Assembly: GCF_037038585.1 (NCBI RefSeq)
Contig: NC_092556.1
Coordinates: 386,619 to 450,618 of the forward strand
Direction of reading: 5' to 3'
DNA from: Patagioenas fasciata
Lineage: Eukaryota
DNA length: 64,000 nucleotides
The translations under genes and the position numbers were made by a program. Of the stretch, positions 4,391 to 64,000 are shown piece by piece. Positions within the stretch are counted from its first letter, which is position 1. Every line of letters starts with the position of its first letter. Below the pieces are notes generated by a model that made no database searches, was not told the DNA's origin, and saw only the letters and a program-made list of their open reading frames with translations.

Positions 4391-4529
4391 GTCCCGGTAC
4401 CTGTGGGGCCGCGGCCGTTGGCGCGGGAACCGGGACAGGAAGTGGCGAGTGGGGCAGGAAACCCCGCCCCCCCCGCCCCTCCCCCCCCCCGCCCCACATC
4501 CGGGAGCCAAGCGGGGCCAACATGGCGGC

Positions 4530-13900: not shown

Positions 13901-16900
13901 TCCGGGGGGGGGTCTGAAAAAGGGACCCAGGCGTCCGGGGGGGTCTGCCCGAGGGACCCAGGCGTCCGGGGGGGGTCTGAAAAAGGGACCCAGGCGTCCG
14001 GGGGGGTCTGCCCGAGGGACCCAGGCATCCGGGGTTGCCCCCCCATTCCCCCCAAAAGGGACCCAGGCGTCCGGGGGGGTCTGCCCGAGGGACCCAGGCG
14101 TCCGGGGGGGTCTGCCCGAGGGACCCAGGCGTCCGGGGGGGTCTGCCCGAGGGACCCAGGCGTCCGGGGGGGTCTGATCAAGGGACCCAGGCGTCCGGGC
14201 AAAGGGACCCAGGCATCCGGGGTGACCCCTAAAAAGGGACCCAGGCGTCCGGGGGGGTCTGCCCGAGGGACCCAGGCGTCCGGGGGGGTCTGATCAAGGG
14301 ACCCAGGCGTCCGGGCAAAGGGACCCAGGCATCCGGGGTGACCCCTAAAAAGGGACCCAGGCGTCCGGGGGGGTCTGCCCAAGGGACCCAGGCGTCCGGG
14401 GGGGTCTGCCCGAGGGACCCAGGCGTCCGGGCGCCCCCACCTCCTTGAACTCCTGGATCTGGGTCTGGTCGAACATGGAGAAAACGTTGGAGCTGCCCTC
14501 GGCCGCTCGGCGCTTCGCCTTCTTGGGGGCCTGCGCGCAGATGGGGGGCAGGATGGGGGGTGGGTGTGGGGCAGGATGGGGGGGGATGTGGGGCAGGATG
14601 TGGGGGGGATGTGGGGGGGATGTGGGGCGGGTGTGGGGGGGTGTGGGGGGGGTGTGGGGCAGGATGGGGGGGGATGTGGGGCAGGATGGGGGGGGGTGTG
14701 GGGCTGGGTGTGGGGGGGGTGTGGGGCAGGATGTGGGGCAGGATGGGGGGCAGGATGGGGGGGATGTGGGGCAGGATGTGGGGCGGGCGTGGGGTGGGTG
14801 TGGGGCAGGATGGGGGGCGGGTGTGGGGTACAAATGGGGCAGGATGTGGGGGGGATGTGGGGCAGGATGTGGGGCAGGATGGGGGGGGGATGTGGGGGGG
14901 ATGTGGGGGGGATGTGGGGCAGGATGGGGGGGGATGTGGGGGGGGATGTGGGGTACAAATGGGGTGGATGTGGGGCAGGATGGGGGGCGGGTGTGGGGCA
15001 GGATGGGGGGGGGATGTGGGGTGGGATGTGGGGGGGATGTGGGGCAGGATGGGGGGGGATGTGGGGTACAAATGGGGCAGGATGTGGGGGGGATGTGGGG
15101 CGGGTGTGGGGGGGATGTGGGGGGGATGTGGGGCAGGATGTGGGGGGGATGTGGGGCGGGTGTGGGGCGGGATGGGGGGGGATGTGGGGCGGGTGTGGGG
15201 CGGGTGTGGGGGGGATGTGGGGGGGATGTGGGGCAGGATGTGGGGGGGATGTGGGGCGGGTGTGGGGCGGGATGGGGGGGGATGTGGGGTACAAATGGGG
15301 CAGGATGTGGGGGGGATGTGGGGGGGATGTGGGGGGGATGTGGGGCGGGTGTGGGGCAGGATGTGGGGGGGATGTGGGGCAGGATGGGGGGCGGGTGTGG
15401 GGGGGATGTGGGGGGGATGTGGGGTGGGATGTGGGGCAGGATGTGGGGCAGGATGGGGGGCGGGTGTGGGGCAGGATGGGGTGGGGATGTGGGGTGGGAT
15501 GTGGGGGGGATGTGGGGGGGATGTGGGGCAGGATGGGGGGGGATGTGGGGGGGATGTGGGGGGGATGTGGGGCAGGATGGGGGGGGATGTGGGGTACAAA
15601 TGGGGCAGGATGTGGGGGGGATGTGGGGCGGGATTTGGGGGGAGATGTGGGGGGGATGTGGGGGGGATGTGGGGGGGATGTGGGGTACAAATAGGGTGGG
15701 ATTTGGGGTACAAATGGGGCAGGTGTGGGGGGGATGTGGGGCAGGATCTGGGGGGGATGTGGGGTGGGATTTGGGGTACAAATGGGGCGGATGTGGGGTG
15801 GATTGGGGGGGATGTGGGGCAGGGATGTGGGGCAGATGGGGAGCAGGGGGTCCCTGGGGGTCCCTATGGGGTCTGGGGGGGATCTGGGGGGGATCTGGGG
15901 GTCCCTATGGGGTCTGGGGGTCCCTATGGGGTTCCCTATGGGGTCTGGGGGTCCCTATGGGGTCTGGGGGTCCCTATGGGGTCTGGGGGGTCCCTGGGGG
16001 TCCCTATGGGGTCTGGGGGTCCCTGGGGGTCCCTATGGGGTCTGGGGGTCCCTATGGGGTCAGGGGGTCCCTGGGGGTCCCTATGGGGTCTGGGGGTCCC
16101 TATGGGGTCTGGGGGTCCCTGGGGGTCTGGGGGGGATGTGGGGGTCCCTATGGGGTCTGGGGGTCCCTGGGGGTCCCTATGGGGTCTGGGGGTCCCTGGG
16201 GGTCTGGGGGGGATGTGGGGGTCCCTATGGGGTCTGGGGGTCCCTGGGGGTCCCTATGGGGTCTGGGGGTCCCTATGGGGTCTGGGGGGGATGTGGGGGT
16301 CCCTATGGGGTCTGGGGGTCCCTGGGGGTCCCTATGGGGTCTGGGGGTCCCTATGGGGTCAGGGGGTCCCTGGGGGTCCCTATGGGGTCTGGGGGTCCCT
16401 ATGGGGTCTGGGGGTCCCTGGGGGTCTGGGGGGGATGTGGGGGTCCCTATGGGGTCTGGGGGTCCCTGGGGGTCCCTATGGGGTCTGGGGGTCCCTGGGG
16501 GTCTGGGGGGGATGTGGGGGTCCCTATGGGGTCTGGGGGTCCCTGGGGGTCCCTATGGGGTCTGGGGGTCCCTATGGGGTCTGGGGGGGATGTGGGGGTC
16601 CCTATGGGGTCTGGGGGTCCCTGGGGGTCCCTATGGGGTCTGGGGGTCCCTATGGGGTCTGGGGGGGATGTGGGGGTCCCTATGGGGTCTGGGGGTCCCT
16701 GGGGGTCCCTATGGGGTCAGGGGGTCCCTGGGGGTCCCTATGGGGTCTGGGGGTCCCTATGGGGTCTGGGGGTCCCTGGGGGTCCCTATGGGGTCTGGGG
16801 GGTCCCTATGGGGTTCCCTATGGGGTCTGGGGGTCCCTATGGGGTCAGGGGGTCCCTATGGGGTCTGGGGGTCCCTGGGGGTCCCTATGGGGTCAGGGGG

Positions 16901-50039: not shown

Positions 50040-50088
50040 ATGGGGGGGAAGGGGGAGAACGTCCTGCTGTTCGCGCCCAACGTCATCG
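50040..50088 (+). CDS. CDIPT: CDIPT exon 1 (MGGKGENVLLFAPNVIG)
   Basis: ggggccATGG start, then ATCG|gtaacg. A GC-box and E-box promoter lies upstream. Confidence 0.85.
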
Positions 50089-53000
50089 GTAACGGGGGGA
50101 CCGGGGGACTGGGGGGACTGGGGAGCGATTTGGGGTGACTGGGATGGACTGGGAGGGACTGGGGAGCGATTTGGGGTGACTGGGAGGGACTGGGGGGCGA
50201 TTTGGGGCGACTGGGATGGATGGGGAGGGACTGGGGGGCGACTGGGAGGGACTGGGAGGGATGCGGGGGGAACTGGGAGCGATTGGGAAGGACTGGGAGT
50301 GCTGGGATGGACTGGGGGGACTGGGAGCGACTGGGGGGCGATTTGGGGCGACTGGGATAAACTGGGAAGGGACTGGGGGGGACTGGGAGGGATGGGGGGG
50401 AACTGGGAGCGATTGGGAGGGACTGGGAGTGCTGGGATGGACTGGGGGGAACTGGGAGGGACTGGGAAGGGGTTGGGGGTGACTGGGATAAACTGGGGGG
50501 GCGCTGGGATGAACTGGGAGGGACTGGGGGGCACTGGGAAGGGATTGGGGGCACTGGGAGGGAACTGGGGAGGACTGGGATGTATTGGGAGGAACTGGGG
50601 GGACTGGGGGCACTGGGATGAACTGGGTGGACTGGGAAGCGATTTGGGGTGACTGGGAGGGCCTGAGAAGGGACTGGGAGGGATGGGGGGGGCACTGGGA
50701 GGGACTGGGAAAGGGTTGGGGGTGACTGGGGTAAACTGGGGGGGCACTGGGATGAACTGGGAGGGACTGGGGGGCACTGGGAAGCCTCTAAGAGTGGGTT
50801 TGGGGGTCTCTGTGCACAGGGGGTGCTCGGGGGGGGTTCTGGGTGACCCCCAGGGCCCTTGGGGAGCTGAAACGACCCATACTGGTCCATACTGGTTTAT
50901 ACTGGTTTATACTGGAAATGCCTCTAAGAGTGGATTTGGGGGTTCCTGTGCATAGGGGGTGCTTGGGGGGGGTTCTGGGTGACCCCCAGGGCCCTTGTGG
51001 AGCTGAAACGACCCATACTGGTCCATACTGGTCCATGCTGGTTTATACTGGAAACGCCTCTAAGAGCGGGTTTGGGGGTCTCTGTGCACAGGGGGTGCTC
51101 GGGGGGTCCCTGCTGACCCCCCCGCCCCTCCCCCCCCCCCAGGCTACGCCCGCGTGGCGCTGGCGGCCGCCTCGTTCTGGCTGATGCCGTCGCGCCCCGG
51201 CCCCGCGGCCGCGCTCTACGGGGCCAGCGCCGCTCTGGACGCCGTGGACGGCGCCGTGGCCCGCAGGCTCCACCAGGGTGGGCGGGGCTTGGGGGGGCGG
51301 GGCCTGGGGGCGGGGAGTTTGGGGGGCGGGGCTGATGGGGTGGGGGTGGGGTAGGTTGGGTGGATGGGGGGAGGATGGGGCATGGGGAGGTGGAGGGGGG
51401 GCGTGGTTTAGGAGGGAGGGGGGTGTGGTTTAGAGGGGGTGTGGTTTAGGTGGAGGGGGTGTGGATTAGAGGGGGTGTGGTTTAGGTGGGAGGGGGTGTG
51501 GTTTAGGAGGGAGGGGGGTGTGGTTTAGGTTGGAGGGGGGTGTGGTTTAGGTGGGGGGTGCGGTTTAGGTTGGAGGGGGTGTGGTTTAGGTGGGAGGGGG
51601 CGTGGTTTAGAGGGGGAGTGGTTTACAGGGGGTGTGGTTTAGGTGGGAGGGGGAGTGGCTTGGAGGGGGAGTGGCCTGAGGGGGTGGGGATGCAATGGGG
51701 CGGGGCCTCGGGGCTGGGGGAGGGGTAACGGGGGTGTATAGGGGTGGGGGGGGACATAGGGAGGTGGGAGGGGGCGTGGTTTAGGTGGGGAGGGGTGGGG
51801 CTTTTGGGGGTGGGGATTGGGGGGCGGGGTTTCCGGGGGGCGGGGCCTTGGGGGTGGGGGAGTGGTAACTGCGATGTATAGGGTGGGGAGGGGGCGTGGT
51901 TTAGAGGGGGTGTGGTTTAGGTGGAGGGGGTGTGGTTTAGAGGGGGTGTGGTTTAGGTGGGAGGGGGCGTGGTTTAGGTTGGAGGGGGTGTGGTTTAGGT
52001 GGGAGGGGGCGTGGTTTAGGTGGGAGGGGGCGTGGTTTAGAGGGGGAGTGGTTTATGTGTATTGGGTGTGGTTTAGAGGGGGTGTGGTTTAGAGGGGGTG
52101 TGGTTTAGAGGGGGTGTGGTTTAGAGGGGGCGTGGTTTAGAGGGGGTTGTGGTTTAGAGGGGGCGTGGTTTAGGTGGGAGGGGGCGTGGCTTGGAGGAGT
52201 CGAGGCCACGAGGGGGCAGGTGAAATGACCTATACTGGTTTATACTGGTCCATATTGGTTTATACTGGTCCATACTGGTTTATACTGGGAATGGCATTAT
52301 GGGGGTTTTCTTGGGCAAGGGGGAGCCAGGGGGTCACTGGGGGGTCCCCTAGGACCCTTGAGGAGGTGAAATGACCGATACTGGTTTATACTGGTCCATA
52401 CTGGTTTATACTGGTTTCTGCTGGTTTGAAGGCCCTTAGGGGGTGTCTATGGGGGGTTGGTTCCGGGGGTCACCCGGGGGCCCCCCCGCTGTCCCCGCCC
52501 CCCCAGGGACCCGTTTTGGCGCCATGCTGGACATGCTGACCGACCGGCTGAGCTCCATGTGCCTATTGGTCAACCTGGCGCTGCTCTACCCGGCAACCGC
52601 CGCCCTGTTCCAGCTCAGCATGGCGCTGGACATCGCCAGCCATTGGCTGCACCTGCACTGGTGGGCGGGGCCGGCGGGGGGCGGGGCCCGGCCAGAAGGG
52701 GCGGGGGCAGAGGGGGTGGGGATAAAGGGGGGGGCATAGAGGGGGCGGAGCTAAACGGGGTGGGGGTAAGAGGGTGGGGGTAAGGGGGCGGAGCTAAAGG
52801 GGTGGGGATAGAGGGGGCGGAGCTAAAGGGGTGGAGGTATGGGGGCGGAGCTAAAGGGGTGGGGATAGAGGGGGCGGAGCTAAAGGGCTGAGGGGTGGGG
52901 ACAAAGGGGGTGGGGATAAAGGAGGCGGAGCTTGCAAGAGGGGGTGGGGATAAAGGGGGTGGGGCTAAAGGAGAGAGGTGAAGGGGGCGGTGCTAAAGGG

Positions 53001-56000
53001 GGTGGGGATGAAGAGGGTGGGGCTAAAAGGGGGTGGGGCTAAAGGGGTGGAGCTAAAGGCAGTGGGAATAAAAGGGGTGGAGCTAAGGGGGGCGGGGATA
53101 AAGGGGGTGGGGTTAGAAGGGGCGGGGATAGAGGAGGTGGAGCTAAAAGGGGTTGGGAAGAAGGGGTGGAGCTAAAGGGGCGGAGCTTGGAGGGGATGGG
53201 CGGGGCTAAGGGGGTGTGGTCGGGGGGTGAACTGGGGGGTGCTGGGAAGGCCCAGCTGGGGTCTATGGGGGGGGGGGTGGGCGAAGGGGCGTGGCCGGTG
53301 GGCGTGTCCCCCGTGACCCCGCCCCCTTTCCCCTCCCCCAGCACCACCCTGGAGGGCGGAGCCTCCCACAAGAACGTGGGGGGGGAGGGGCACTGGCTGC
53401 TGCGCCTCTACTACACACACAAGGTGGGGGAGGGGCCAAGGGGGAGGGGCCAAGGGGTGGGGGAGGGGTCATGGGGTTGGGGGAGGGGCCAAGGGGGAGG
53501 GGTCATGTGGTAGGGGGAGGGGTCAGGGGTTTGGGGTGGGGTTGGGGGTGGAGTCATGGATTTGGGGGTGTGGTCAGGGGTTTGGGGGTGGGGTGATGGA
53601 TTTGGGGGTGGGGTCATGGATTTGGGGGTGTGGTCAGGGGTTTGGGGGCGGGGTGATGGATTTGGGGGTGGGGTCAGGGATTTGGGGGTGGGGTCAGAGG
53701 GGTGGGGTGGGGTCATGGGGCGTGGCCAATGTAGGAGGCGGGGTCATTATTTGGGGGCGGGGCCAGGGATTTGGGGGTGTGGTCAGTGTAGGGGTGGAGT
53801 CATTTGGGGGTGGGGGGGCGTGGTCAGTGTGGGGGTGGAGTCAGGGTGGGGTCAGTGTATGGGGACGGGGTCATTATTGGGGGCGGGGCCGTGGGGTTGT
53901 GGGCGGGGCCACGGGGTTGGGGTGGGGTCAGGCGGCTGTGGGCGGGGCCGGGGGCGTGTCCAGCTCAGGGGGCGTGTCGGCGCTGTCCCCGCCCCCAGCC
54001 GGTGCTGTTCGTGGTCTGTGCTGGGAACGAAGCGTTTTACTGCGCGCTCTACCTGCTCCGCTTCGGCGACGGGCCCCGCGGTGAGGCGCTGGGCACACGG
54101 GGCACAGACTGGGCACAGACTGGGTACACTGGGTACAGACTGGTTAGACTGGGTACAGACTGGTCAGACTGGGTACGGACTGGTCAGACTGGGTACAGAC
54201 TGGTTAGATTGGGTACAGACTGGTCAGACTGGGTACAGACTGGTCAGACTGGGTACGGACTGGTCAGACTGGGTACGGACTGGTTAGACTGGGTACAGAC
54301 TGGTTAGACTGGGTACGGACTGGTTAGACTGGGTACGGACTGGTCAGACTGGGTACGGACTGGTCAGACTGGGTACAGACTGGTCAGACTGGGTACGGAC
54401 TGGTCAGACTGGGTACGGACTGGTCAGACTGGGTACGGACTGGTCAGACTGGGTACGGACTGGTCAGACTGGTTACAGACTGGTCAGACTGGGTACAGAC
54501 TGGTCAGACTGGGTACAGACTGGTCAGACTGGGTACAGACTGGTCAGACTGGGTACGGACTGGTCAGACTGGGTACGGACTGGTCAGACTGGGTACAGAC
54601 TGGTTAGATTGGGTACAGACTGGTCAGACTGGGTACAGACTGGTTAGACTGGGTACGGACTGGTCAGACTGGGTACAGACTGGTCAGACTGGGTACGGAC
54701 TGGTCAGACTGGGTACAGACTGGTCAGACTGGGTACAGACTGGTCAGACTGGGCACAGACTGGTCAGACTGGGTACAGACTGGTCAGACTGGGTACGGAC
54801 TGGTCAGATTGGGTACGGACTGGTCAGACTGGGTACAGACTGGTCAGACTGGGTACAGACTGGTCAGACTGGGTACGGACTGGTCAGACTGGGTACGGAC
54901 TGGTCAGACTGGGTACGGACTGGTCAGACTGGGTACAGACTGGTCAGACTGGGTACAGACTGGTCAGACTGGGTACGGACTGGTCAGACTGGGTACGGAC
55001 TGGTCAGACTGGGTACAGACTGGTCAGACTGGGTACAGACTGGTCAGACTGGGCACAGACTGGTCAGACTGGGTACAGACTGGTTAGATTGGGTACAGAC
55101 TGGTCAGACTGGGTACGGACTGGTCAGACTGGGTACAGACTGGTTAGATTGGGTACAGACTGGTCAGACTGGGTACGGACTGGTCAGACTGGGTACAGAC
55201 TGGTCAGACTGGGTACAGACTGGTCAGACTGGGTACAGACTGGTCAGACTGGGTACAGACTGGTCAGACTGGGTACGGACTGGTCAGACTGGGTACAGAC
55301 TGGTCAGACTGGGTACAGACTGGTTAGACTGGGTACAGACTGGTCAGACTGGGTACGGACTGGTCAGACTGGGTACAGACTGGTCAGACTGGGCACAGAC
55401 TGGTTAGATTGGGTACAGACTGGTTAGATTGGGTACAGACTGGTCAGACTGGGTACAGACTGGTTACAGACTGGTTAGACTGGTTACAGACTGGTTACAG
55501 ACTGGTTACACTGGTTACAGACTGGTTACAGACTGGTTACAGACTGGTTAGACTGGTTACACTGGTTACAGACTGGTTACAGACTGGTTAGACTGGTTAC
55601 ACTGGTTACAGACTGGTTAGACTGGTTACAGACTGGTTAGACTGGTTACAGACTGGTTACAGACTGGTTACACTGGTTACAGACTGGTTACAGACTGGTT
55701 AGACTGGTTACACTGGGTACAGACTGGTTACAGACTGGTTACAGACTGATTACACTGGTTACACTGGTTACAGATTGGTCAGACTGGTTACACTGGTTAC
55801 ACTGGTTACACTGGTTACACACTGGTTACACTGGGGAGAGAGTGGTCAGACTGGTTACAGACTGGTCACAGACTGGTTACACTGGTCAGACTGGTCACAG
55901 ACTGGTTACACTGGTCAGACTGGTTACAGACTGGTTACACTGGTTACAGACTGGTTACACTGGTTACAGACTGGTTACAGACTGGTTACACTGGTTACAG

Positions 56001-57697
56001 GCTGGTTAAACTGGTTACAGACTGGTTACACTGGTTACAGGCTGGTTAAACTGGTTACAGACTGCTCAGACTGGTTACAGACCGGTTACACTGGTTACAG
56101 ACTGGTTACACTGGTTACACTGGTTACACTGGTTACACTGGTTACAGACTGGTCAGACTGGTTACAGACTGGTTAGACGACTGGTTACACTGGTTACAGA
56201 CTGGTTACAGACTGGTTACACTGGTTACAGACTGGTCAGACTGGTCAGACTGGTTACACTGGTTACAGACTGGTCAGACTGGTCAGACTGGTTACAGACT
56301 GGTTGCACTGGTTACACACTGGTTACACTGGTTACAGACTGGTTAGACTGGTCAGACTGGTCAGACTGGTTACACACTGGTTACACTGGTTACAGACTGG
56401 TCAGACTGGTTACACTGGTTACAGACTGGCTACACTGCGGAGAGACTGGTTATACTGGTTAGAGACTGGATATACCAGTTATGGACTGGTCAGACTGGTT
56501 ACAGACTGGTTAGACTGGAGAGAGACTGGTTAGAGACTGGGGAGAGACTGGTTAGACTGGTTAGAGACTGGGGAGAGACTGGTTAGACTGGTTAGAGACT
56601 GGATAGACCAGTTACAGACCGGTTAAACTGGTTACAGACTGGTTAGAGACTGGGGAGAGACTGGTTAGACTGGTTAGAGACTGGATATACCAGTTACGGA
56701 CTGGTTAGACTGGTTACAGACTGGTTAGACTGGAGAGAGACTGGTTAGAGACTGGATATACCAGTTACGGACTGGTTAGACTGGTTACAGACTGGTTAGA
56801 GACTGGATAGACCAGTTACAGACTGGTTAGACTGGTTAGAGAGACTGGTTATAGCCATTAGAGACTGGTTAGCCTGGTTATACCAGTTAGAGACCAGTTA
56901 GAGCCTCATTAGACTGGTTAGAGCCTCATTAGACTGGTTAGAGACTGGGGAAAGAGACCGGTTATGATACTGGTTATACTGGTTAGAGAGACTGGTTAGA
57001 CTGGTTAGCGAGATTGGTTAGACTGGGGAGACTGGTCAGACTGGGGAGTTACACTGGTTATACTGGGAACACTGGTTATACTGGGGGTCTGGTTATACTG
57101 GGGAGGTTGGTTATACTGGGAGACTGGGGGGAACTACGGGGAACTGGTTTATACTGGAGGGACTGGGAGGGATTGGGGAGCACTGGGATGAACTGGGAGG
57201 GGATTGGGAAGGACTGGGGGGGTCACTGGGATGAACTGGGGGTCACTGGTCGGTACTGGTCTGTACTGGTCCATACTGGTCTGGACTGGTCCGTACTGGT
57301 CCCAGGGGGCCCCGGGCTGTTCAGCCTCCTCCTCTGGGTCGGGACTGGGGGGCACTGGTCTGAACTGGTCCGTACTGGTCTGAACTGGTCCATACTGGTC
57401 CATACTGGTCTGAACTGGTCCGTACTGGTCTGAACTGGTCCGTACTGGTCTGAACTGGTCCGTACTGGTCCATACTGGTCTGAACTGGTCCATACTGGTC
57501 TGAACTGGTCCGTCCTGGTCCCAGTGCTCCCGGGGGGCCCCGGGCTGTTCCGCCTCCTCCTCTGGGTCGCGACCCCCATGGCCGCCCTCAAGTTCCTGCT
57601 GAACCTGCTGCAGCTGGGCGGAGCCGCCGCGCGATTGGCCGCCCTGGACGCCGCCGCCAGGCGATTGGACGGGGCGCCCCGCCCCAAAACCCAGTGA
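50040..57697 (+). CDS. CDIPT: CDP-diacylglycerol--inositol 3-phosphatidyltransferase (phosphatidylinositol synthase), complete CDS in 6 exons, 224 aa
   Basis: Plus-strand exons: 50040-50088, 51143-51277, 52507-52660, 53342-53423, 53999-54080, 57525-57697 (includes stop). Translation: MGGKGENVLLFAPNVIGYARVALAAASFWLMPSRPGPAAALYGASAALDAVDGAVARRLHQGTRFGAMLDMLTDRLSSMCLLVNLALLYPATAALFQLSMALDIASHWLHLHCTTLEGGASHKNVGGEGHWLLRLYYTHKPVLFVVCAGNEAFYCALYLLRFGDGPRGVLPGGPGLFRLLLWVATPMAALKFLLNLLQLGGAAARLAALDAAARRLDGAPRPKTQ*. It is collinear with my recall of human CDIPT (..FLFVPNLIGYARI...DAFDGHAARALNQGTRFGAMLDMLTDRCSTMCLLVNLALLYP...SHWLHLH...LRIYYTSRPALFTLCAGNELFYCLLYL..) and carries the CDP-alcohol phosphatidyltransferase D-G-x-x-A-R...G-x-x-x-D-x-x-x-D signature. 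All junctions are GT..AG. Confidence 0.9.
50090..50790 (+). repeat. 7-bp based satellite GACTGGGAGGGACTGGGGGGC (CDIPT intron 1)
   Basis: Direct reading. Confidence 0.85.
51143..51277 (+). CDS. CDIPT: CDIPT exon 2
   Basis: Acceptor cccccccccag|GCTACGCC and donor CACCAGG|gtgggcgg. Confidence 0.88.
51290..52170 (+). repeat. About 20 bp satellite GGTGTGGTTTAGGTGGGAGGG (CDIPT intron 2)
   Basis: Direct reading. Confidence 0.85.
52507..52660 (+). CDS. CDIPT: CDIPT exon 3
   Basis: Acceptor cgcccccccag|GGACCCG and donor GCACTG|gtgggcgg. Contains the GAMLDMLTDR active-site block. Confidence 0.9.
52690..53230 (+). repeat. About 30 bp satellite GGCGGAGCTAAAGGGGTGGGGATAAAGG (CDIPT intron 3)
   Basis: Direct reading. 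Confidence 0.85.
53342..53423 (+). CDS. CDIPT: CDIPT exon 4
   Basis: Acceptor cctcccccag|CACCACC and donor CACAAG|gtgggggag. Confidence 0.88.
53999..54080 (+). CDS. CDIPT: CDIPT exon 5
   Basis: Acceptor cgcccccag|CCGGTGCTG and donor CCCCGCG|gtgaggcg. Confidence 0.88.
54090..57060 (+). repeat. 3 kb satellite in CDIPT intron 5: 22-bp GACTGGTCAGACTGGGTACAGAC in about 60 copies (54090-55450), grading into ACTGGTTACAGACTGGTTAC variants (55450-57060)
   Basis: Direct reading. Confidence 0.9.
57525..57697 (+). CDS. CDIPT: CDIPT exon 6 (terminal; ..LWVATPMAALKFLLNLL.., stop TGA)
   Basis: Acceptor cgtcctggtcccag|TGCTCCC. Frame is continuous from exon 5. The stop is at 57695-57697. Confidence 0.82.
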
Positions 57698-57789
57698 CTC
57701 CGCCCCAGAACCCGCCCGGGACCCCCGCGAAATGTCCCCAAAACCGCCCCATAAACGGAGCAACCGCCCACCCCTGGAGGGGTTTCCTC

Positions 57790-59400
57790 ACCATTGACTC
57801 GTTAACGCCTTCGCCAATCAACGGGGGGTTAATTAGGGGCTAATTAAGAGTGGGGAGGGGTCTCCTGACCTTCTAGACCCCATAACTACCAACCCAACCC
57901 ATTGAGACCCAATGACCACCAACCCCATTGAGACCCAACCACCAACCCTATGTAGATGCAACTTCACCATTGACTCATTAAGCCTCTGGCCAATCAATGG
58001 GGGGTTAATTAGGGGCTAATTAAGAGTGGGGGAGGAGTCACCTGACCTTCTAGACCCCATAACTACCAACCCAACCCACTGAGACCCAATGACCACCAAC
58101 CCCATTGAGATGCAACCACCAACCCCTTGAGATGTTTCCTCACCATTGACTCATTAAGCCCTTGGCCAATCAACGGGGGGTTAATTAGGGGCTAATTAAG
58201 ACTGGGGGAGGAGTCACCTGACCTTCTAGACCCCATAACTACCAACCCCATAGAGACCCAATGACTACGAACCCATTGAGACTCAAGAACCATCAACCCC
58301 ATTGAGTTGTTTCTCCACCATTGACTCATTAAGCCCTTGGCCAATCAAAAGGTTAATTAATTATGGACTAATTAAGAGTGGGGAGGGGTCTCCTGACCTT
58401 CTAGACCCCGTAACTACCAACCCAACCCATTGAGACCCAATGACCACCAACCCCATTGAGATGCAACCACCAACCCCTTGAGATGTTTCCTCACCATTGA
58501 CTCATTAAGACCTTGGCCAATCAAAATGTTAATTAATAAGGGGTTAATTAAGAGTGGGGAGGGGCCTCCTGGCCTTCTAGACCCCATAACTACCAACCCC
58601 ATAGAGACCCAATGACCACCAACCCACTGAGACCCAATGACCGTGAACCCCATTGAGATGCAACCACCAACCCCTTGAGATGTTTCCTCACCATTGACTC
58701 ATTAAGCCCTTGGCCAATCAACGGGGGGTTAATTAGGGGCTAATTAAGACTGGGGGAGGAGTCATCTGACCTTCTAGACCCCATAACTACCAACCCCATA
58801 GAGACCCAATGACCATGAACCCATTGAGACCCAACGACCATCAACCCCATTGAGTTGTTTCTCCACCATTGACTCATTAAGCTCTTGGCCAATCAAAAGG
58901 TTAATTAATTATGGACTAATTAAGAGTGGGGAGGGGTCTCCTGACCTTCTAGACCCCATAACTACCAACCCAACCCACTGAGACCCAATGACCACCAACC
59001 CCATTGAGACCCAACCACCAACCCTATGTAGACGCAACTTCACCATTGACTCATTAAGCCTTTGCCAATGAATGGGGGGTTAATTAGGGGCTAATTAAGA
59101 GTGGGGAGGGGCCTCCTGGCCTTCTAGACCCCATAACTACCAACCCCATAGAGACCCAATGACCACCAACCCATTGAGACTCAAGAACCATCAACCCCAT
59201 TGAGATGTTTCCTCACCATTGACTCATTAAGCCCTTGGCCAATCAACGGGGGGTTAATTATGGACTAATTAAGAGTGGGGAGGGGTCTCCTGACCTTCTA
59301 GACCCCATAACTACCAACCCAACCCACTGAGACCCAATGACCGTGAACCCCATTGAGATGCAACCACCAACCCCTTGAGATGTTTCCTCACCATTGACTC
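57790..59400 (+). repeat. 177-bp (nucleosome-length) satellite in about 9 copies, containing GGCCAATCAA and GGGTTAATTAGGGGCTAATTAAG motifs, between the convergent 3' ends of CDIPT and MFAP4-like
   Basis: Monomer starts (CACCATTGACTCATTAAGCC) are near 57965, 58143, 58316, 58494, 58685, 58862, 59040, 59215 and 59390. Confidence 0.88.
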
Positions 59401-59472
59401 CTGAAGCCTGTGGCCAATTAACGAGCGGGTTTAATTGCACGCGCGGGGGCGGGGCGGGGCGGGGGCGGGGCC

Positions 59473-59720
59473 TCAGAGGCGCCGGATCTTCATCTCGCTC
59501 TTGCGCAGCGAGTAGTAGAAGCCCTTCCACTGGGCCCAGTTGATGCCGTTGGCGTAGGAGAGGTGGGCGCCCCCCAGGTAGAAGCCGTTGAGGTTGGAGA
59601 AGTGGCAGCTGCGGAACCACCAGGCGCCCGAGGAGAGGGCGGCGCAGTTCTGCACGTACAGGTCCTGGTCGCGGTCGAAGGTGGAGAACTTCTGCCCGTT
59701 GTGGTAGCTCAGGGAGTCCC
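59473..59720 (-). CDS. MFAP4: MFAP4-like last exon ([39 protein letters not shown]...EMKIRRL*)
   Basis: Acceptor caccccccag|GGGACTCC on the minus strand. The stop codon TGA is at 59473-59475. Confidence 0.88.
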
Positions 59721-62510
59721 CTGGGGGTGGGGGGGGTCGTTGGGGTGGGGTCCCCGTCCCCATGGTTGACATTGACCTGGGGTCCCCTCCATTGACCTGG
59801 GGTCCCCTCCATTGACCTGGGGTCCCCTCCATTGACCTGGGGTCCCATTCCCATGGTTGACGTTGACTTGATCTCCCTCCCATTGACCCCCATTGACCAC
59901 ATTGAACCCCATTGACCCCCATTGACCCCCATTGACTCCCATTGATCCCCATTGACTGCCATTGAACCCCATTGACCCCCATTGACCCCCATTGACGCCC
60001 ATTGACTCCCATTGACCGCCATTGACTCCCATTGACCCCCACTGATCCCCATTGACCCCCATTAACTCCCATTGACGCCCATTGATTCCCATTGATCCCC
60101 ATTGACCCCCATTGACTTCCATTGATTCCCATTGACCCCCATTGACCTCCATTGACTCCCATTGACCCCCATTGACCCCATTGATCCCCATTGACCCCCA
60201 TTGACTCCTGGTCGCGGTCGAAGGTGGAGAACTTCTGCCCGTTGTGGTAGCTCAGGGAGTCCCCTGGGGGTGGGGGGGTCGTTGGGGTGGGGTCCCCGTC
60301 CCCGTGATTGACGTTGACCTGGGGTCCCCTCCCCATGGTTGACATTGACCTGGGGTCCCCTCCATTGACCTGGGGTCCCCTCCCCATGGTTGACATTGAC
60401 CCAATGGCCCTCATGGTGGACGTTGACCTGGGGTCCCCTCCATTGACCTGGGGTCCCCTCCATTGACCTGGGGTCCCATTCCCATGGTTGACGTTGACTT
60501 GATCTCCCTCCCATTGACCACATTGAACCCCATTGACCCCCATTGATCCCCATTGACTCCCATTGATCCCCATTGACTGCCATTGAACCCCATTGACCCC
60601 CATTGACCCCTGTTGATCCCCATTGACTCCCATTGACTTCCATTGATTCTCATTGACTCCCATTGACCCCATTGACGCCCATTGACTCCCATTGACCGCC
60701 ATTGACCCCCATTGACTCCCATTGACCCCCATTGACTCCCATTGACCACCATTGACCCCCACTGACCCCCATTGACCCCCATTGACCCCCATTGACCCCC
60801 ATTGATCCCCATTGATCCCCATTGACCCCCATTGACTCCTGGTCGCGGTCGAAGGTGGAGAACTTCTGCCCGTTGTGGTAGCTCAGGGAGTCCCCTGGGG
60901 GTGGGGGGGTCGTTGGGGTGGGGTCCCCGTCCCCATGGTTGACATTGACCTGGGGTCCCCTCCATTGACCTGGGGTCCCCTCCATTGACCTGGGGTCCCC
61001 TCCATTGACTTCTTGTCCCCTCCCCATGGTTGACATTGACCTGGGGTCCCCTCCATTGACCTGGGGTCCCATTCCCATGGTTGACGTTGACTTGATCTCC
61101 CTCCCATTGACCACATTGAACCCCATTGACCCCCATTGACCACATTGAACCCCATTGACCCCCATTGACTCCCATTGACCCCCACTGACCCCCACTGACC
61201 CCCATTGATTCCTATTGACCCCCATTGACTCCCATTGACTTTCATTGATTCCCATTGACCCCCATTGACTCCCAGTGACCCCCAGTGACCCCCACTGACC
61301 CCCATTGACCCCCATTGACTCCCATTGACCCCCATTGACTCCCAGTGACCCCCAGTGACCCCCACTGACCCCCATTGACCCCCATTGACCCCCATTGACT
61401 CCCATTGACCCCCACTGACCCGCATTGACTCCCATTGACCCCCATTGACTCCCATTGACCCCCACTGACCCCCATTGACTCCCATTGACCCCCATTGACC
61501 CCATTGACCCCCACTGACCCCCACTGACCCCCATTGAACCCCATTGACTCCCATTGACCCCCATTGACCCCATTGACCCCCATTGACCCCCATTGATCCC
61601 CATTGACTCCCATTGACTCCCATTGACCCCCATTGACCCCGTTGACCCCCATTGACCCCATTGACCCCCATTGACTCCTGGTCGCGGTCGAAGGTGGAGA
61701 ACTTCTGCCCGTTGTGGTAGCTCAGGGAGTCCCCTGGGGGTGGGGGGGTCGTTGGGGTGGGGTCCCCGTCCCCGTGATTGACGTTGACCTGGGGTCCCCT
61801 CCATAGACCTGGGGTCCCCTCCATGGACCTGGGGTCCCATTCCCATGGTTGACGTTGACTTGATCTCCCTCCCATTGACCACATTGAACCCCATTGACCC
61901 CCATTGACCACATTGACTCCCATTGACCCCCATTGACTCCCATTGATCCCCATTGACTGCCATTGAACCCCATTGACCCCCATTGACCCCTGTTGATCCC
62001 CATTGACCCCCATTGACTTCCATTGATTCTCATTGACTCCCATTGACCCCCACTGACGCCCATTGACCCCCATTGACCCCAATTGACTCCCACTGACCCC
62101 CATTGACCCCCACTGACCCCCACTGATCCCCACTGACCCCCATTGACTCCCATTGACCCCCATTGACTCCGTTGACCCCCATTGACCCCCACTGATCCCC
62201 ATTGACCCCATTGACCCCCATTGACCCCCATTGATCCCCATTGACTCCCATTGACTCCGTTGCCCCCCACTGACCCCCACTGACCCCCATTGCCCCCCGT
62301 CGCCCCCCGTCGCCCCCCGCCCCTCACCGGCGCCGCCGTCCACGAAGCCGCCCACGTGCAGGGTGTACCCGTCCTCCTCGGCGCTCACGGCGTGGGGCGA
62401 CAGCGCGAAGCGGCCGTAGGTGGCGGCCGCCGAGTTGTTCTCGAAGTCCTCGAGCTCCACGCGCAGCTCGTAGCGGCCCTGCAGCGTCAGCAGGTGCAGC
62501 GCCTGCAGCC
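59473..62510 (-). CDS. MFAP4: MFAP4-like fibrinogen C-terminal domain protein, 3' terminal two coding exons only (partial at window end)
   Basis: Minus-strand exons 62328-62510 and 59473-59720. Translation: (G)[142 protein letters not shown]. It is nearly collinear with my recall of the human MFAP4 C-terminus (..[142 protein letters not shown]). Upstream exons must lie beyond 64000. Confidence 0.82.
59730..62310 (+). repeat. 12-bp satellite CCATTGACCCCC with a 550-840 bp higher-order structure carrying copies of the MFAP4-like last-exon 5' fragment (MFAP4-like intron)
   Basis: Direct reading. Confidence 0.9.
62328..62510 (-). CDS. MFAP4: MFAP4-like penultimate exon ([25 protein letters not shown]...[10 protein letters not shown])
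   Basis: Acceptor ccccacctgcag|GGCTGCAG and donor GGCGCCG|gtgaggggcg on the minus strand. 183 bp. Phase is consistent with the last exon. Confidence 0.82.
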
Positions 62511-62519
62511 CTGCAGGTG

Positions 62520-64000
62520 GGGTGATGTGGGGTGATGTGGGGTGATGTGGGGCAGATGTGGGGCGGGATGTGGGGTGATGTGGGGCAGATGTGGGGCGGG
62601 ATGTGGGGTGATGTGGGGCGGGATGTGGGGTGATGTGGGGCGGGATGTGGGGCAGCTCGTAGCGGCCCTGCAGCGTCAGCAGGTGCAGCGCCTGCAGCCC
62701 TGCAGGTGGGGCGATGTGGGGTGATGTGGGGTGATGTGGGGCAGGATGTGGGGCGGGATGTGGGGCAGATGTGGGGCGGGATGTGGGGCAGCTCGTAGCG
62801 GCCCTGCAGCGTCAGCAGGTGCAGCGCCTGCAGCCCTGCAGGTGGGGCGATGTGGGGTGATGTGGGGTGATGTGGGGTGATGTGGGGAGGGATGTGGGGC
62901 AGATGTGGGGCGGGATGTGGGGCAGCTCGTAGCGGCCCTGCAGCGTCAGCAGGTGCAGCGCCTGCAGCCCTGCGTGTGGGGTGATGTGGGGTGATGTGGG
63001 GTGATGTGGGGCAGATGTGGGGCAGATGTGGGGCGGGATGTGGGGCAGCTCGTAGCGGCCCTGCAGCGTCAGCAGGTGCAGCGCCTGCAGCCCTGCAGGT
63101 GGGGTGATGTGGGGTGATGTGGGGCAGATGTGGGGCGGGATGTGGGGCAGATGTGGGGTGATGTGGGGCAGATGTGGGGCAGGATGTGGGGCAGCTCGTA
63201 GCGGCCCTGCAGCGTCAGCAGGTGCAGCGCCTGTAGCCCTGGATGTGGGGTGATGTGGGGTGATGTGGGGCGGGATGTGGGGCAGCTCGTAGCGGCCCTG
63301 CAGCGTCAGCAGGTGCAGCACCTGCAGCCCTGCATGTGGGGTGATGTGGGGTGATGTGGGGTGATGTGGGGTGATGTGGGGCAGGATGTGGGGCGGGATG
63401 TGGGGCAGCTCGTAGCGGCCCTGCAGCGTCAGCAGGTGCAGCGCCTGCAGCCCTGCAGGTGGGGCGATGTGGGGTGATGTGGGGTGATGTGGGGCAGGAT
63501 GTGGGGCGGGATGTGGGGCAGATGTGGGGCGGGATGTGGGGCAGCTCGTAGCGGCCCTGCAGCGTCAGCAGGTGCAGCGCCTGCAGCCCTGCAGGTGGGG
63601 CGATGTGGGGTGATGTGGGGTGATGTGGGGTGATGTGGGGAGGGATGTGGGGCAGATGTGGGGCGGGATGTGGGGCAGCTCGTAGCGGCCCTGCAGCGTC
63701 AGCAGGTGCAGCGCCTGCAGCCCTGCGTGTGGGGTGATGTGGGGTGATGTGGGGTGATGTGGGGCAGATGTGGGGCAGATGTGGGGCGGGATGTGGGGCA
63801 GCTCGTAGCGGCCCTGCAGCGTCAGCAGGTGCAGCGCCTGCAGCCCTGCAGGTGGGGTGATGTGGGGTGATGTGGGGCAGATGTGGGGCGGGATGTGGGG
63901 CAGATGTGGGGTGATGTGGGGCAGATGTGGGGCAGGATGTGGGGCAGCTCGTAGCGGCCCTGCAGCGTCAGCAGGTGCAGCGCCTGTAGCCCTGGATGTG
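62520..64000 (+). repeat. About 120-150 bp tandem units in about 11 copies. Each is a copy of the MFAP4-like penultimate-exon acceptor plus the first about 50 nt of that exon, followed by GATGTGGGG satellite
   Basis: The unit GGGCAGCTCGTAGCGGCCCTGCAGCGTCAGCAGGTGCAGCGCCTGCAGCCCTGCAGGTGGGGTGATGTGGGG.. is repeated. The minus-strand ORF 62812-63321 reads [17 protein letters not shown] three times. Confidence 0.9.

What the first reader, a model, noticed from the sequence alone, without database searches (positions are those of the whole stretch)
57281..57345. Partial duplicate of the CDIPT terminal-exon acceptor and first about 40 nt, embedded in the ACTGGTCC satellite 230 bp upstream of the real exon
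ctggtcccagGGGGCCCCGGGCTGTTCAGCCTCCTCCTCTGGGTCG at 57288-57330 is near-identical to the real junction ctggtcccagTGCTCCCGGGGGGCCCCGGGCTGTTCCGCCTCCTCCTCTGGGTCG at 57515-57570. The flanking CTGGTCCGTACTGGTCTGAACTGGTCC repeats also flank the real exon. This is a third independent case of an exon junction captured by a satellite.
Basis: seen in the sequence. Interest (0 to 1): 0.55.

Follow-up and report, generated by a model that had tools for sequence, protein, structure and literature searches.

The report
Exon-edge copy inside pigeon CDIPT intron
A short, recent tandem duplication in the band-tailed pigeon copied the splice acceptor and 36 bases of the last CDIPT coding exon into the repeat-filled intron just upstream; this is one more example of the "exon stuttering" recently described for genes on bird dot chromosomes, and nothing suggests it has a function.

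Summary
GGGGCCCCGGGCTGTTC[A/C]GCCTCCTCCTCTGGGTCG occurs only twice in the window, at 57306-57341 and 57534-57569 (none expected by chance). Both copies follow CTGGTCCCAG. The window is Patagioenas fasciata: my spliced CDIPT model equals NCBI's protein over all 224 aa, so 57525-57697 is the true terminal coding exon.

The upstream copy lacks the 9 nt after the AG. It ends at exon nt 45, in TCTGGGTCG, which resembles a satellite unit, and joins a G-rich unit (ACTGGGGGGC) otherwise seen only at the 5' edge of the ACTGGTCC array. This points to a tandem duplication of about 130-230 bp with one end in the exon.

The copy is absent from Columba livia and Caloenas nicobarica and shares a Patagioenas-derived base, so it is lineage-specific.

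It passes the published exon-stuttering screen (Hron et al. 2026): 42 nt, 67.9 bits, shuffled maximum 32.2. Similar captures occur twice more in this window and in CDIPT of emu (same junction), rock pigeon, sparrow and chicken.

If the decoy AG were used, the product would be a 209-aa truncated protein. No evidence of use was found, and the real acceptor has its own 198-nt AG-free zone.

Verdict: ordinary for this genomic setting, and a new member of a known kind.

The parts
53999..54080 (+). CDIPT exon 5. It ends ...CCCCGCG|gtgagg and leaves 1 nt of a split codon.
   Evidence: The spliced product is identical to P0001.
54081..57524 (+). CDIPT intron 5 (3444 bp). It is almost entirely ACTGG-core satellite of about 10 nt, graded from AGACTGGTT/ACTGGTTAG through ACTGGGAGGG/ACTGGGATGA to ACTGGTCCGT/ACTGGTCTGA.
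   Evidence: TRF arrays at 54105-56944, 56969-57127 and 57153-57521. There are 302 ACTGG, or 88 per kb.
57203..57244 (+). G-rich units (ATTGGGAAGG ACTGGGGGGGTC ACTGGGATGA ACTGGGGGTC) at the 5' boundary of the ACTGGTCC array. This is the inferred upstream end of the duplicated segment, and it overlaps a G-quadruplex motif at 57216-57242.
   Evidence: In-register unit listing. The same unit order precedes the array in Columba livia. G4 regex.
57245..57295 (+). Left ACTGGTCN array: 5 units (TCGGT, TCTGT, TCCAT, TCTGG, TCCGT), with no CTGAA motif. A sixth unit continues into the decoy acceptor.
57296..57305 (+). Copy of the acceptor CTGGTCCCAG. The decoy AG is at 57304-57305.
   Evidence: It is identical to 57515-57524.
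57306..57341 (+). Copy of terminal-exon nt 10-45, 35/36 identical. The C-to-A change at 57323 creates a second AG.
57342..57353 (+). Novel junction GG + ACTGGGGGGC: exon nt 45 joined to a G-rich boundary unit. This marks the start of the right-hand copy of the duplicated segment.
   Evidence: It resembles GGACTGGGGGGGTC at 57211-57224.
57354..57514 (+). Right ACTGGTCN array: 16 units. It is AG-free and carries 7 branch-point-like CTGAA motifs, the last 21 nt from the real AG.
   Evidence: No AG occurs between 57325 and 57522.
57515..57524 (+). The real acceptor CTGGTCCCAG of the terminal exon.
57525..57533 (+). TGCTCCCGG, the first 9 nt of the real exon, missing from the copy. It is flanked by the near-repeat TCCCAG / TCCCGG.
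   Evidence: It is present in the real exon of all three pigeons, so the copy lost it.
57525..57697 (+). CDIPT terminal coding exon, with stop TGA at 57695-57697.
57561..57571 (+). Exon-internal satellite-like unit TCTGGGTCGCG, which includes the Leu-Trp codons. The duplication ends after its 9th base (exon nt 45).

Best explanation
This is a real, evolutionarily recent tandem duplication specific to the Patagioenas lineage. It is a non-functional by-product of satellite turnover in a bird dot-chromosome gene: a single-copy case of 'exon stuttering'.

Inferred origin. Intron 5 of CDIPT is filled with an ACTGG-core satellite of about 10 nt that runs right up to the 3' splice site. The exon itself contains a satellite-like unit, TCTGGGTCGCG (nt 37-47, which includes the conserved Leu-Trp codons CTC TGG). 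An out-of-register exchange paired this exon unit with a G-rich intronic unit at the 5' edge of the ACTGGTCC array. The exchange could have been unequal sister-chromatid or meiotic recombination, or a replication template switch. It duplicated the segment [array + acceptor + exon nt 1-45].

Later changes. The upstream copy lost 9 nt by slippage between TCCCAG and TCCCGG and gained one C-to-A substitution. The real acceptor gained an A-to-C change at position -11. The two arrays drifted to 6 and 17 units.

Consequence (inferred). The decoy AG is probably used little or not at all. The real acceptor keeps its own 198-nt AG-free zone with seven branch-point-like CTGAA motifs, and the 92-nt AG-free zone upstream of the decoy has none. 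If the decoy were used, it is in frame and would give a 209-aa protein that replaces the last transmembrane segment and the C-terminus with satellite-encoded residues.
For: Shown:
- Two-copy exon-specific match, none expected by chance.
- The gene model is identical to NCBI's P. fasciata CDIPT.
- The copy is absent from the orthologous intron of Columba livia and Caloenas nicobarica, each of which gives one hit only.
- The copy shares the Patagioenas-derived C in CCG[C]CTCC (Columba, Caloenas, crane and sparrow have G). It keeps the ancestral A at -11, where the real site now has C. The event therefore falls within the Patagioenas lineage.
- TGCTCCCGG is present in the real exon of all three pigeons, so the 9-nt gap is a loss in the copy.
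- The G-rich unit ACTGGGGGGC right after the fragment otherwise occurs only at the 5' edge of the array. The left block's upstream unit order matches the start of the Columba array. Both points indicate duplication of a whole segment and not insertion of an exon patch.
- The junction is in register with the 10-11-nt period.
- It passes the published exon-stuttering screen: 42 nt, 67.9 bits against a 42.1 threshold, with a shuffled-intron maximum of 32.2 (criteria from PMC12954441).
- 84% of the window lies in tandem arrays.
- Captures of the same kind occur twice more in this window and in CDIPT of emu, rock pigeon, sparrow and chicken.
- Emu duplicated the same acceptor edge independently, with its breakpoint at exon nt 49 against 45 here.
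- AG and CTGAA maps and the predicted products.
Against: - Only one assembly of P. fasciata was available, so reads, the second haplotype and population data could not be checked.
- Microhomology at the junction is only 1-2 nt. The 'register' argument rests on imperfect similarity (TCTGGGTCG against ATTGGGAAGG or ACTGGGAGGG).
- The exact upstream end of the duplicated unit cannot be fixed within a repetitive array.
- Columba livia has a small island of ACTGGTCC units (L001 16831-16869) inside the G-rich units. This could be a remnant of an older shared duplication that lost the exon piece.
- No transcript data were available, so non-use of the decoy is inferred only from sequence features.
- Locally the decoy site is about as good as the real one: pyrimidine fraction 0.67 against 0.72, and G against T at +1.
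- Similar copy lengths in emu and pigeon are not very surprising, since published copies have a median of 36 nt.
Confidence: 0.8

Rival explanations
1. The decoy is a used alternative 3' splice site. It produces a C-terminally altered CDIPT isoform of 209 aa, or competes with the real site and so lowers functional CDIPT output.
For: The decoy AG keeps 20 of the 21 upstream intronic bases of the real site and has the preferred G at +1. The 9-nt loss keeps the reading frame. The decoy lies upstream and is transcribed first. Hron et al. note that such copies create potential alternatively spliced transcripts.
Against: NCBI annotates a single isoform that uses the real site. No protein in the 5.8-billion collection carries the decoy-derived tail (a weak negative). 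No CTGAA or yUnAy branch-point-like motif occurs in the decoy's 92-nt AG-free zone, against seven before the real AG. The product would lose the conserved last helix and C-terminus of an essential enzyme. The decoy is not conserved in Columba or Caloenas.
Confidence: 0.12
2. The duplication is older, shared with the Columba lineage. Columba later lost the exon fragment, and gene conversion has kept the Patagioenas copy similar to its own exon.
For: Columba livia has a 3-unit ACTGGTCC island (L001 16831-16869) upstream of the main array, in a similar unit context (ACTGGGGGTTC ACTGGGATGG | TCC units). Slippage between flanking ACTGG cores could excise the fragment cleanly.
Against: This needs a precise loss in Columba plus conversion to explain the shared Patagioenas-derived C. 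The unit order upstream of the left block matches the start of the Columba main array at least as well. Caloenas shows neither an island nor a fragment.
Confidence: 0.15
3. The exon piece arrived as a short patch within a pre-existing array, by gene conversion or template-switch repair, and not by duplication of a whole array-plus-exon segment.
For: Only 36-46 nt are unambiguously non-satellite. Blastn gives an alternative ungapped alignment (exon nt 4-45 to 57300-57341) in which the AG arises from a G-to-A change, so no acceptor needs to have been copied. G-quadruplex motifs lie next to the site (57159-57242), consistent with repair at stalled forks as Hron et al. speculate.
Against: The G-rich boundary unit ACTGGGGGGC directly after the fragment is unexplained by a patch. 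The gapped alignment with the intact CTGGTCCCAG needs one event, against a deletion plus a substitution for the ungapped alternative.
Confidence: 0.1
4. It is an assembly artefact, from mis-joining or mis-polishing within a tandem array.
For: The region is highly repetitive and G/C-homopolymer rich. Hron et al. caution that some local variation may be technical.
Against: The copy differs from the source by a 9-nt indel, a substitution and a distinct junction, which is not what a collapsed or duplicated read stack would give. The same kind of structure is seen in independent assemblies of five other birds. It was confirmed with raw nanopore reads in chicken.
Confidence: 0.04

Closest known systems
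Exon stuttering / sequence stuttering of genes on avian dot chromosomes (Hron et al., Genome Biol Evol 2026, PMC12954441)
   Same: A lateral part of a coding exon, together with its splice site, is copied in direct orientation into the adjacent intron, which is saturated with tandem repeats, while the real exon stays intact. The copy length (36-42 nt) equals the published median of 36 nt. The case passes their blastn-short screen. The gene is GC-rich, in a region that is 84% tandem arrays. The orthologues lie on chromosome records of 0.49-0.77 Mb.
   Different: There is a single copy (they report 1-44, median 4, and say single copies may be an early stage or another process). The species is a pigeon, whereas their screen covered chicken only. 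CDIPT does not appear in the supplementary text I could search. The host repeat is a short 10-mer, not blocks of tens to hundreds of bases. Here the exon-side breakpoint lies in a motif that resembles the satellite core, a point they do not analyse.
Minisatellite or tandem-array unequal exchange and replication slippage producing local tandem duplications
   Same: There is one novel junction, in register with the repeat period. The left copy keeps its native upstream context. Array lengths differ between the two copies. A secondary 9-nt slippage deletion lies between near-repeats.
   Different: One breakpoint lies outside the array, in unique coding sequence, so a splice site and coding bases were carried along.
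Cryptic or decoy 3' splice sites created by intronic duplication
   Same: A near-identical AG context lies upstream of the authentic site. Its use would be in frame and would truncate the protein.
   Different: No evidence of use was found. The authentic site is shielded by its own AG-free zone containing branch-point-like motifs.
Satellite-filled gigantic introns, such as Drosophila Y-linked fertility genes (cited by Hron et al. as Fingerhut & Yamashita 2022)
   Same: Introns made largely of simple satellite DNA within expressed genes.
   Different: Those are megabase-scale and heterochromatic, and are not known for copying exon edges. Here the introns are 0.6-3.4 kb and lie in GC-rich euchromatin.

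Membership tests
Exon stuttering (Hron et al. 2026) | [quoted passage not shown] | tested here: met
   Exon 6 sequence occurs at 57306-57341 in intron 5, on the same strand, 228 bp upstream of its source.
Exon stuttering (Hron et al. 2026) | blastn-short (-dust no) hit of at least 20 nt and at least 42.1 bits, above a shuffled-intron control | tested here: met
   42 nt, 95.2% identity, 67.9 bits. The maximum over 200 shuffles of the CDIPT introns was 32.2 bits. Criteria were read.
Exon stuttering (Hron et al. 2026) | The source lies at the exon border, and the copy spans the exon-intron boundary including the splice site | tested here: met
   The copy keeps CTGGTCCCAG and the upstream array. 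Caveat: the 9 nt just after the AG are missing, and the ungapped BLAST alignment starts at exon nt 4.
Exon stuttering (Hron et al. 2026) | The host intron is heavily covered by simple or tandem repeats | tested here: met
   TRF arrays cover essentially all of 54105-57521. 84% of the whole window is in arrays.
Exon stuttering (Hron et al. 2026) | The gene lies on a dot microchromosome | tested here: inconclusive
   The orthologues sit on chromosome-level records of 489,914 bp (Columba livia CM070384.2) and 774,814 bp (Caloenas CM069743.1). The window is 62% GC and repeat-dense. The P. fasciata record is 2.1 Mb, but its chromosome assignment is not visible with these tools.
Exon stuttering (Hron et al. 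2026) | Cluster of several tandemly related copies (the typical pattern; median 4) | tested here: inconclusive
   There is only one copy; no further site matches at 20/29 or better apart from chance-level hits. The authors accept single copies but flag them as possibly early-stage or of another origin.
Exon stuttering (Hron et al. 2026) | Intron length or copy number varies between individuals | not testable with these tools
   Only one P. fasciata sequence is available. Between species, intron 5 is 3444, 1779 and 1482 bp in the three pigeons.
Functional alternative 3' splice site or alternative terminal exon | Conserved in related species | tested here: not met
   Absent from Columba livia and Caloenas nicobarica.
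Functional alternative 3' splice site or alternative terminal exon | Transcript or protein evidence for use | tested here: inconclusive
   NCBI has a single isoform, which uses the real site. A search with the decoy-tail peptide found nothing. The collection holds no transcript-derived P. fasciata CDIPT, so the negative result is weak.
Functional alternative 3' splice site or alternative terminal exon | The reading frame continues into conserved protein sequence | tested here: not met
   After GGPGLFSLLLWV the frame runs into satellite-encoded GTGGHWSELVRTGLNWS... and stops at 57431-57433.
Retrocopy or processed-pseudogene fragment | Lacks intron sequence and is not contiguous with the parent intron | tested here: not met
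   The copy carries the intronic acceptor and is contiguous with the same intronic array.

The most novel reading that the evidence does not exclude
Exon-edge capture may not be random. Its exon-side breakpoints may be set by short homology between conserved coding motifs and the core of the neighbouring intron satellite. In CDIPT the Leu-Trp codons CTCTGG (exon-6 nt 36-41) mimic the ACTGG core. The same acceptor edge was duplicated independently in emu (break after nt 49) and band-tailed pigeon (break after nt 45). The emu exon-5 copies start exactly at an exon ACTG. The ACTGG-core satellite occupies the same two CDIPT introns (1 and 5), on the sense strand only, in emu and all Neoaves examined. 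It is absent in chicken and turtle. This would mean either persistence since the avian ancestor or a constraint on the motif, for example in splicing.
Probability: 0.3. Interest if true: 0.5.

Novelty: new member of a known kind. Interest (0 to 1): 0.3.

Why it matters
Taken alone it matters little. It is one more neutral-looking exon-edge copy in a genomic compartment where such copies are common, and the phenomenon was published in 2025-2026.

It has modest value in three ways:
- It extends exon stuttering from chicken to pigeons. With the side observations, it also extends it to emu and a sparrow.
- The three-pigeon comparison dates one event to a single lineage and identifies which copy is ancestral. 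This gives an unusually clean single-step example for working out the mechanism.
- It places a near-perfect decoy acceptor upstream of the only acceptor of the last exon of an essential enzyme. That makes it a natural test of how 3' splice sites are chosen inside satellite DNA.

Tried and rejected
- The look-up of encoding contigs on P0001 (P. fasciata) and on the X2 isoforms P0006 and P0002 returned nothing. The X1 isoforms found through the listing of cluster members did give the Columba and Caloenas loci.
- A search for proteins carrying the hypothetical decoy-spliced C-termini of pigeon and emu found nothing. I treat this as a weak negative, because no transcript-derived P. fasciata CDIPT is in that collection.
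- CDIPT does not occur in the two supplementary files of Hron et al. that are held as text. I therefore cannot say whether chicken CDIPT is on their list of 115 genes.
- No validated splice-site scoring model (such as MaxEntScan) was available offline. I report only pyrimidine fraction, AG maps and simple branch-point motifs, and I give the 'no CTGAA upstream of the decoy' point low weight, since only two TCTGN units are involved.
- Retrocopy origin was considered and rejected, because the copy contains intron sequence.
- Chance or low-complexity match was considered and rejected.
- No other CDIPT exon in the window has a partial copy.
- I did not annotate the upstream 50 kb of the window. A screen of non-repeat islands there found only repeat-to-repeat matches.
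Full report
**1. Observation**

Reading 56400-58600 shows CTGGTCCCAG followed by GGGGCCCCGGGCTGTTCAGCCTCCTCCTCTGGGTCG at 57296-57341. It shows CTGGTCCCAG-TGCTCCCGG-GGGGCCCCGGGCTGTTCCGCCTCCTCCTCTGGGTCG at 57515-57569.

- A pattern search for the 36-mer with up to 3 mismatches finds exactly these two sites in 64 kb. None of 100 dinucleotide-preserving shuffles gave a match.
- A gapped local alignment joins the two sites across a 9-nt gap (TGCTCCCGG is missing from the upstream copy). It continues upstream through the ACTGGTCC units.
- A 29-nt core that does not resemble the satellite matches 28/29. The next best site in the window reaches 20/29.

The match is therefore exon-specific and not just the CTGGTCC repeat.

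**2. What the exon is**

tblastn with human CDIPT (sequence recalled from memory, used only to locate exons) finds six collinear pieces on the + strand. With splice sites read from the sequence, the exons are 50040-50088, 51143-51277, 52507-52660, 53342-53423, 53999-54080 and 57525-57697.

Their translation is 100% identical over 224 aa to NCBI's CDP-diacylglycerol--inositol 3-phosphatidyltransferase of Patagioenas fasciata, the band-tailed pigeon (P0001). So the window comes from that species, 57525 is the annotated start of the terminal coding exon, and the upstream copy lies in intron 5.

**3. Setting**

Tandem Repeats Finder places 84% of the window in arrays, and GC content is 62%. Intron 5 (3444 bp) is essentially one graded ACTGG-core satellite of about 10 nt.

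The orthologous genes of Columba livia and Caloenas nicobarica lie on chromosome-level records of only 0.49 and 0.77 Mb. This is the GC-rich, repeat-dense dot-chromosome environment.

**4. Anatomy**

Written in register, the sequence reads:

- ...ATTGGGAAGG ACTGGGGGGGTC ACTGGGATGA ACTGGGGGTC
- then ACTGGTCGGT ACTGGTCTGT ACTGGTCCAT ACTGGTCTGG ACTGGTCCGT ACTGGTCCCAG
- then GGGGCCCC...CTCC TCTGGGTCG (the exon fragment)
- then GG ACTGGGGGGC (the junction)
- then 16 ACTGGTCN units, then CCTGGTCCCAG
- then TGCTCCCGG GGGGCCCC...CTCC TCTGGGTCGCG ACCCC... (the real exon).

Three points follow.

- The copy ends at exon nt 45, inside TCTGGGTCGCG. This exon stretch looks like a satellite unit, and the junction keeps the 10-11-nt phase.
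- The fragment is followed by a G-rich unit (ACTGGGGGGC) that otherwise occurs only at the 5' edge of the ACTGGTCC array (compare GGACTGGGGGGGTC at 57211-57224).
- The left block keeps the ancestral upstream unit order. The same order (ACTGGGGGGTTC ACTGGGATGA ACTGGGGGTTTC, then ACTGGTCC units) precedes the array in Columba livia.

Together these indicate one tandem duplication of the segment [G-rich boundary unit ... array ... acceptor ... exon nt 45]. They argue against insertion of a bare exon patch.

**5. Comparative dating**

Columba livia (L001) and Caloenas nicobarica (L002) each give a single hit to the exon start, which is the real exon. Reading their whole intron 5 shows the same family of satellite but no fragment.

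Diagnostic sites:

- In CCG[C/G]CTCC, the Patagioenas exon and its copy both have C. Columba, Caloenas, crane and sparrow have G.
- At position -11 of the acceptor, the copy keeps A, as in Columba and Caloenas. The real Patagioenas site has C.
- TGCTCCCGG is present in all three real exons.

The order of events on the Patagioenas branch is therefore: G-to-C change in the exon; then the duplication; then loss of 9 nt and a C-to-A change in the copy, and an A-to-C change at the real site. The 9-nt loss lies between the near-repeat TCCCAG / TCCCGG, which fits slippage.

One alternative is not excluded. Columba has a 3-unit ACTGGTCC island at L001 16831-16869, which could be the relic of an older shared duplication. 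I judge this less parsimonious.

**6. Likely mechanism of origin (inferred)**

I infer an out-of-register exchange between the exon's (T)CTGGGTCG and an intronic (A/T)CTGGG unit. This could be unequal sister-chromatid or meiotic recombination, or a template switch during replication or repair. Strict microhomology at the junction is only 1-2 nt; the argument rests on register and imperfect similarity.

G-quadruplex motifs lie directly upstream of the left block (57159-57242). This is compatible with the suggestion of Hron et al. that replication stress is involved, but it does not demonstrate it.

**7. Consequences for splicing (inferred)**

The decoy AG (57304-57305) has the context ctggtccgtactggtcccag|GGG. 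The real site has ctggtccgtcctggtcccag|TGC. Pyrimidine fractions are 0.67 and 0.72.

Exon 5 ends with one base of a split codon. Because 9 nt were lost, the decoy is in frame. Its use would give ...GDGPR-GGPGLFSLLLWV-GTGGHWSELVRTGLNWSILVHTGLNWSVLV*, a 209-aa protein with its stop at 57431-57433. This replaces the conserved last helix and C-terminus. The C-to-A change also creates a second AG at 57323-57324; its use would be out of frame and give 186 aa.

Features that argue against use:

- No AG occurs between 57325 and 57522, so any branch point in the right array leads to the real AG.
- Seven CTGAA motifs lie in that zone, the last 21 nt from the real AG.
- None lies in the 92-nt AG-free zone upstream of the decoy.

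In cormorant, crane, sparrow and emu a consensus CTGAC sits about 25-31 nt upstream of this acceptor. The pigeon 20-mer ACTGGTCTGAACTGGTCCGT looks like an amplified version of that branch-point and polypyrimidine region.

NCBI lists only the isoform that uses the real site. A search for the decoy-derived peptide found nothing, which is a weak negative.

**8. Comparison with what is known**

Hron et al. (Genome Biol Evol 2026, PMC12954441) describe 'sequence stuttering' of introns on chicken dot chromosomes and, within it, 'exon stuttering'. In exon stuttering a lateral part of an exon, with its donor or acceptor, is copied into the adjacent intron, 'creating potential alternatively spliced transcripts'. 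Their reported figures:

- Copies of 20-187 nt (median 36), present 1-44 times (median 4).
- More than 90% of sources within 1 nt of the exon border.
- 190 of 236 affected introns on dot chromosomes.

I applied their screen (blastn-short, no dust filter, at least 20 nt, at least 42.1 bits, adjacent intron) to this gene. It gives one hit, exon 6 to intron 5, of 42 nt and 67.9 bits, with a shuffled-intron maximum of 32.2. The finding is therefore a member of this known kind, at the single-copy end of the range. The authors say single copies may be an early stage or have another cause. It is the only paper in the searchable library that uses the term, and its screen covered chicken only.

**9. 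Other cases seen**

In the window, the minus-strand fibrinogen-C-domain gene (Pfam PF00147) has two further cases.

- Its terminal-exon acceptor plus about 60 nt is copied three times (60206, 60837, 61676), each copy followed by a GTCAATGGGG satellite.
- Another exon's acceptor plus about 50 nt (source 62463-62516) is copied at least ten times within 62580-63924.

In CDIPT of other birds, using the same screen:

- **Emu:** one copy of the same acceptor edge. It carries the branch point, the pyrimidine tract, cag and exon nt 1-49, with 1 mismatch, 158 bp upstream of the real exon. Emu also has two copies of the exon-5 donor edge.
- **Columba livia:** exon 1 plus its donor, copied once in intron 1.
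- **Zonotrichia and chicken:** the 3' edge of exon 3, copied five and at least four times respectively.
- **Caloenas, cormorant and crane:** none.

The emu and pigeon events are independent, because each copy matches its own species' exon and the intermediate taxa lack it. Their breakpoints fall 4 nt apart in homologous coordinates, just after the conserved CTCTGG. The emu exon-5 copies begin at an exon ACTG. This suggests that homology to the satellite core guides the breakpoints. Since published copies have a median of 36 nt, similar lengths alone are not strong evidence.

**10. Verdict**

The structure is a lineage-specific, single-copy exon-stuttering event, most likely a silent by-product of satellite turnover. 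Interest is low to moderate and the phenomenon is already described. The residual interest lies in whether the decoy is spliced, and in the possible role of satellite-core homology in recurrent capture of the same exon edge.

Noticed in passing
window 59437-61773 (minus strand): The terminal exon of a fibrinogen-C-domain gene ([20 protein letters not shown]...KIRRL*; Pfam PF00147, E = 3e-28) has its pyrimidine tract, cag and first ~60 nt copied three more times, at 60206-60303, 60837-60942 and 61676-61773 (99-100% identity). Each copy breaks after GACCAGGA into the GTCAATGGGG satellite.
   Followed up: partly
window 62463-63924 (minus strand): Another Fibrinogen_C exon (…[22 protein letters not shown]…) has its acceptor and first ~50 nt (source 62463-62516) repeated at least ten times with a period of ~123 bp. 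Each copy breaks after GAGCTGC into the CCCCACATC satellite, with CTGC microhomology to the satellite variant ATCTGCCCCACATC.
   Followed up: partly
window 50099-51142 and 54081-57524; L001-L006 CDIPT introns 1 and 5: An ACTGG-core satellite of ~10 nt fills CDIPT introns 1 and 5 (9-90 ACTGG per kb) in band-tailed pigeon, rock pigeon, Nicobar pigeon, cormorant, crane, sparrow and emu. Introns 3-4 have almost none in most species. The motif is on the sense strand only (window: ACTGG 415, CCAGT 37). It is absent from chicken CDIPT (0 per kb) and nearly absent from green turtle (1-2 per kb). The unit tails differ by lineage. I found no description of such conservation of a satellite core in orthologous introns across Palaeognathae and Neoaves.
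   Followed up: partly
L006 (emu) 4202-4243, 4367-4407, 4517-4565: Emu CDIPT intron 5 (593 bp) carries two perfect copies of the last 42 nt of exon 5 plus the GT donor. It also carries one copy of the terminal-exon acceptor (tctgac branch point, pyrimidine tract, cag) plus exon nt 1-49, 158 bp upstream of the real exon. This is the same junction as the pigeon finding, duplicated independently.
   Followed up: partly
L001 (Columba livia) 11431-11463: A 33-nt copy of CDIPT exon 1 (94% identity), with a GT still following it, is embedded in the TACTGGG satellite of intron 1. It is absent from the band-tailed pigeon.
   Followed up: partly
L005 (Zonotrichia) 8173-10023; L008 (chicken) 4278-5508: The last 25-27 nt of CDIPT exon 3 plus the donor are copied five times in the sparrow and at least four times in chicken. 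This is the same junction in two distant lineages. Chicken also has copies of the 5' part of exon 3 upstream (3517, 3676, 3825).
   Followed up: partly
window 57480-57524; L003 8400-8427, L004 6684-6711, L005 13553-13580: Cormorant, crane and emu have a consensus CTGAC branch point and a long C-tract before the terminal-exon AG. In pigeons the satellite runs right up to the AG and replaces the tract. The pigeon 20-mer ACTGGTCTGAACTGGTCCGT resembles the sparrow's CTGGTTCTGACCGGTTTGTTCCGG, as if the branch-point region itself had been amplified.
   Followed up: partly
L001 (Columba livia) 16831-16869: A 3-unit island of ACTGGTCC/TCTGA units sits inside the G-rich ACTGGGATGG units, ~70 bp upstream of the main ACTGGTCC array. 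It could be an intron-only duplication of the same kind or a relic of an older event.
   Followed up: no
window 57760-59436: A 176/351-bp satellite (about 9 and 5 copies) begins ~60 bp after the CDIPT stop codon. It fills the space up to the convergent fibrinogen-domain gene, so the CDIPT 3'UTR and polyadenylation region must lie within or next to repeats.
   Followed up: no
window 1-64000: 84% of the window lies in Tandem Repeats Finder arrays. Only 59 non-repeat islands of at least 60 bp (9.7 kb in total) remain, and many of them look like exons. The genes in the upstream 50 kb were not identified.
   Followed up: no
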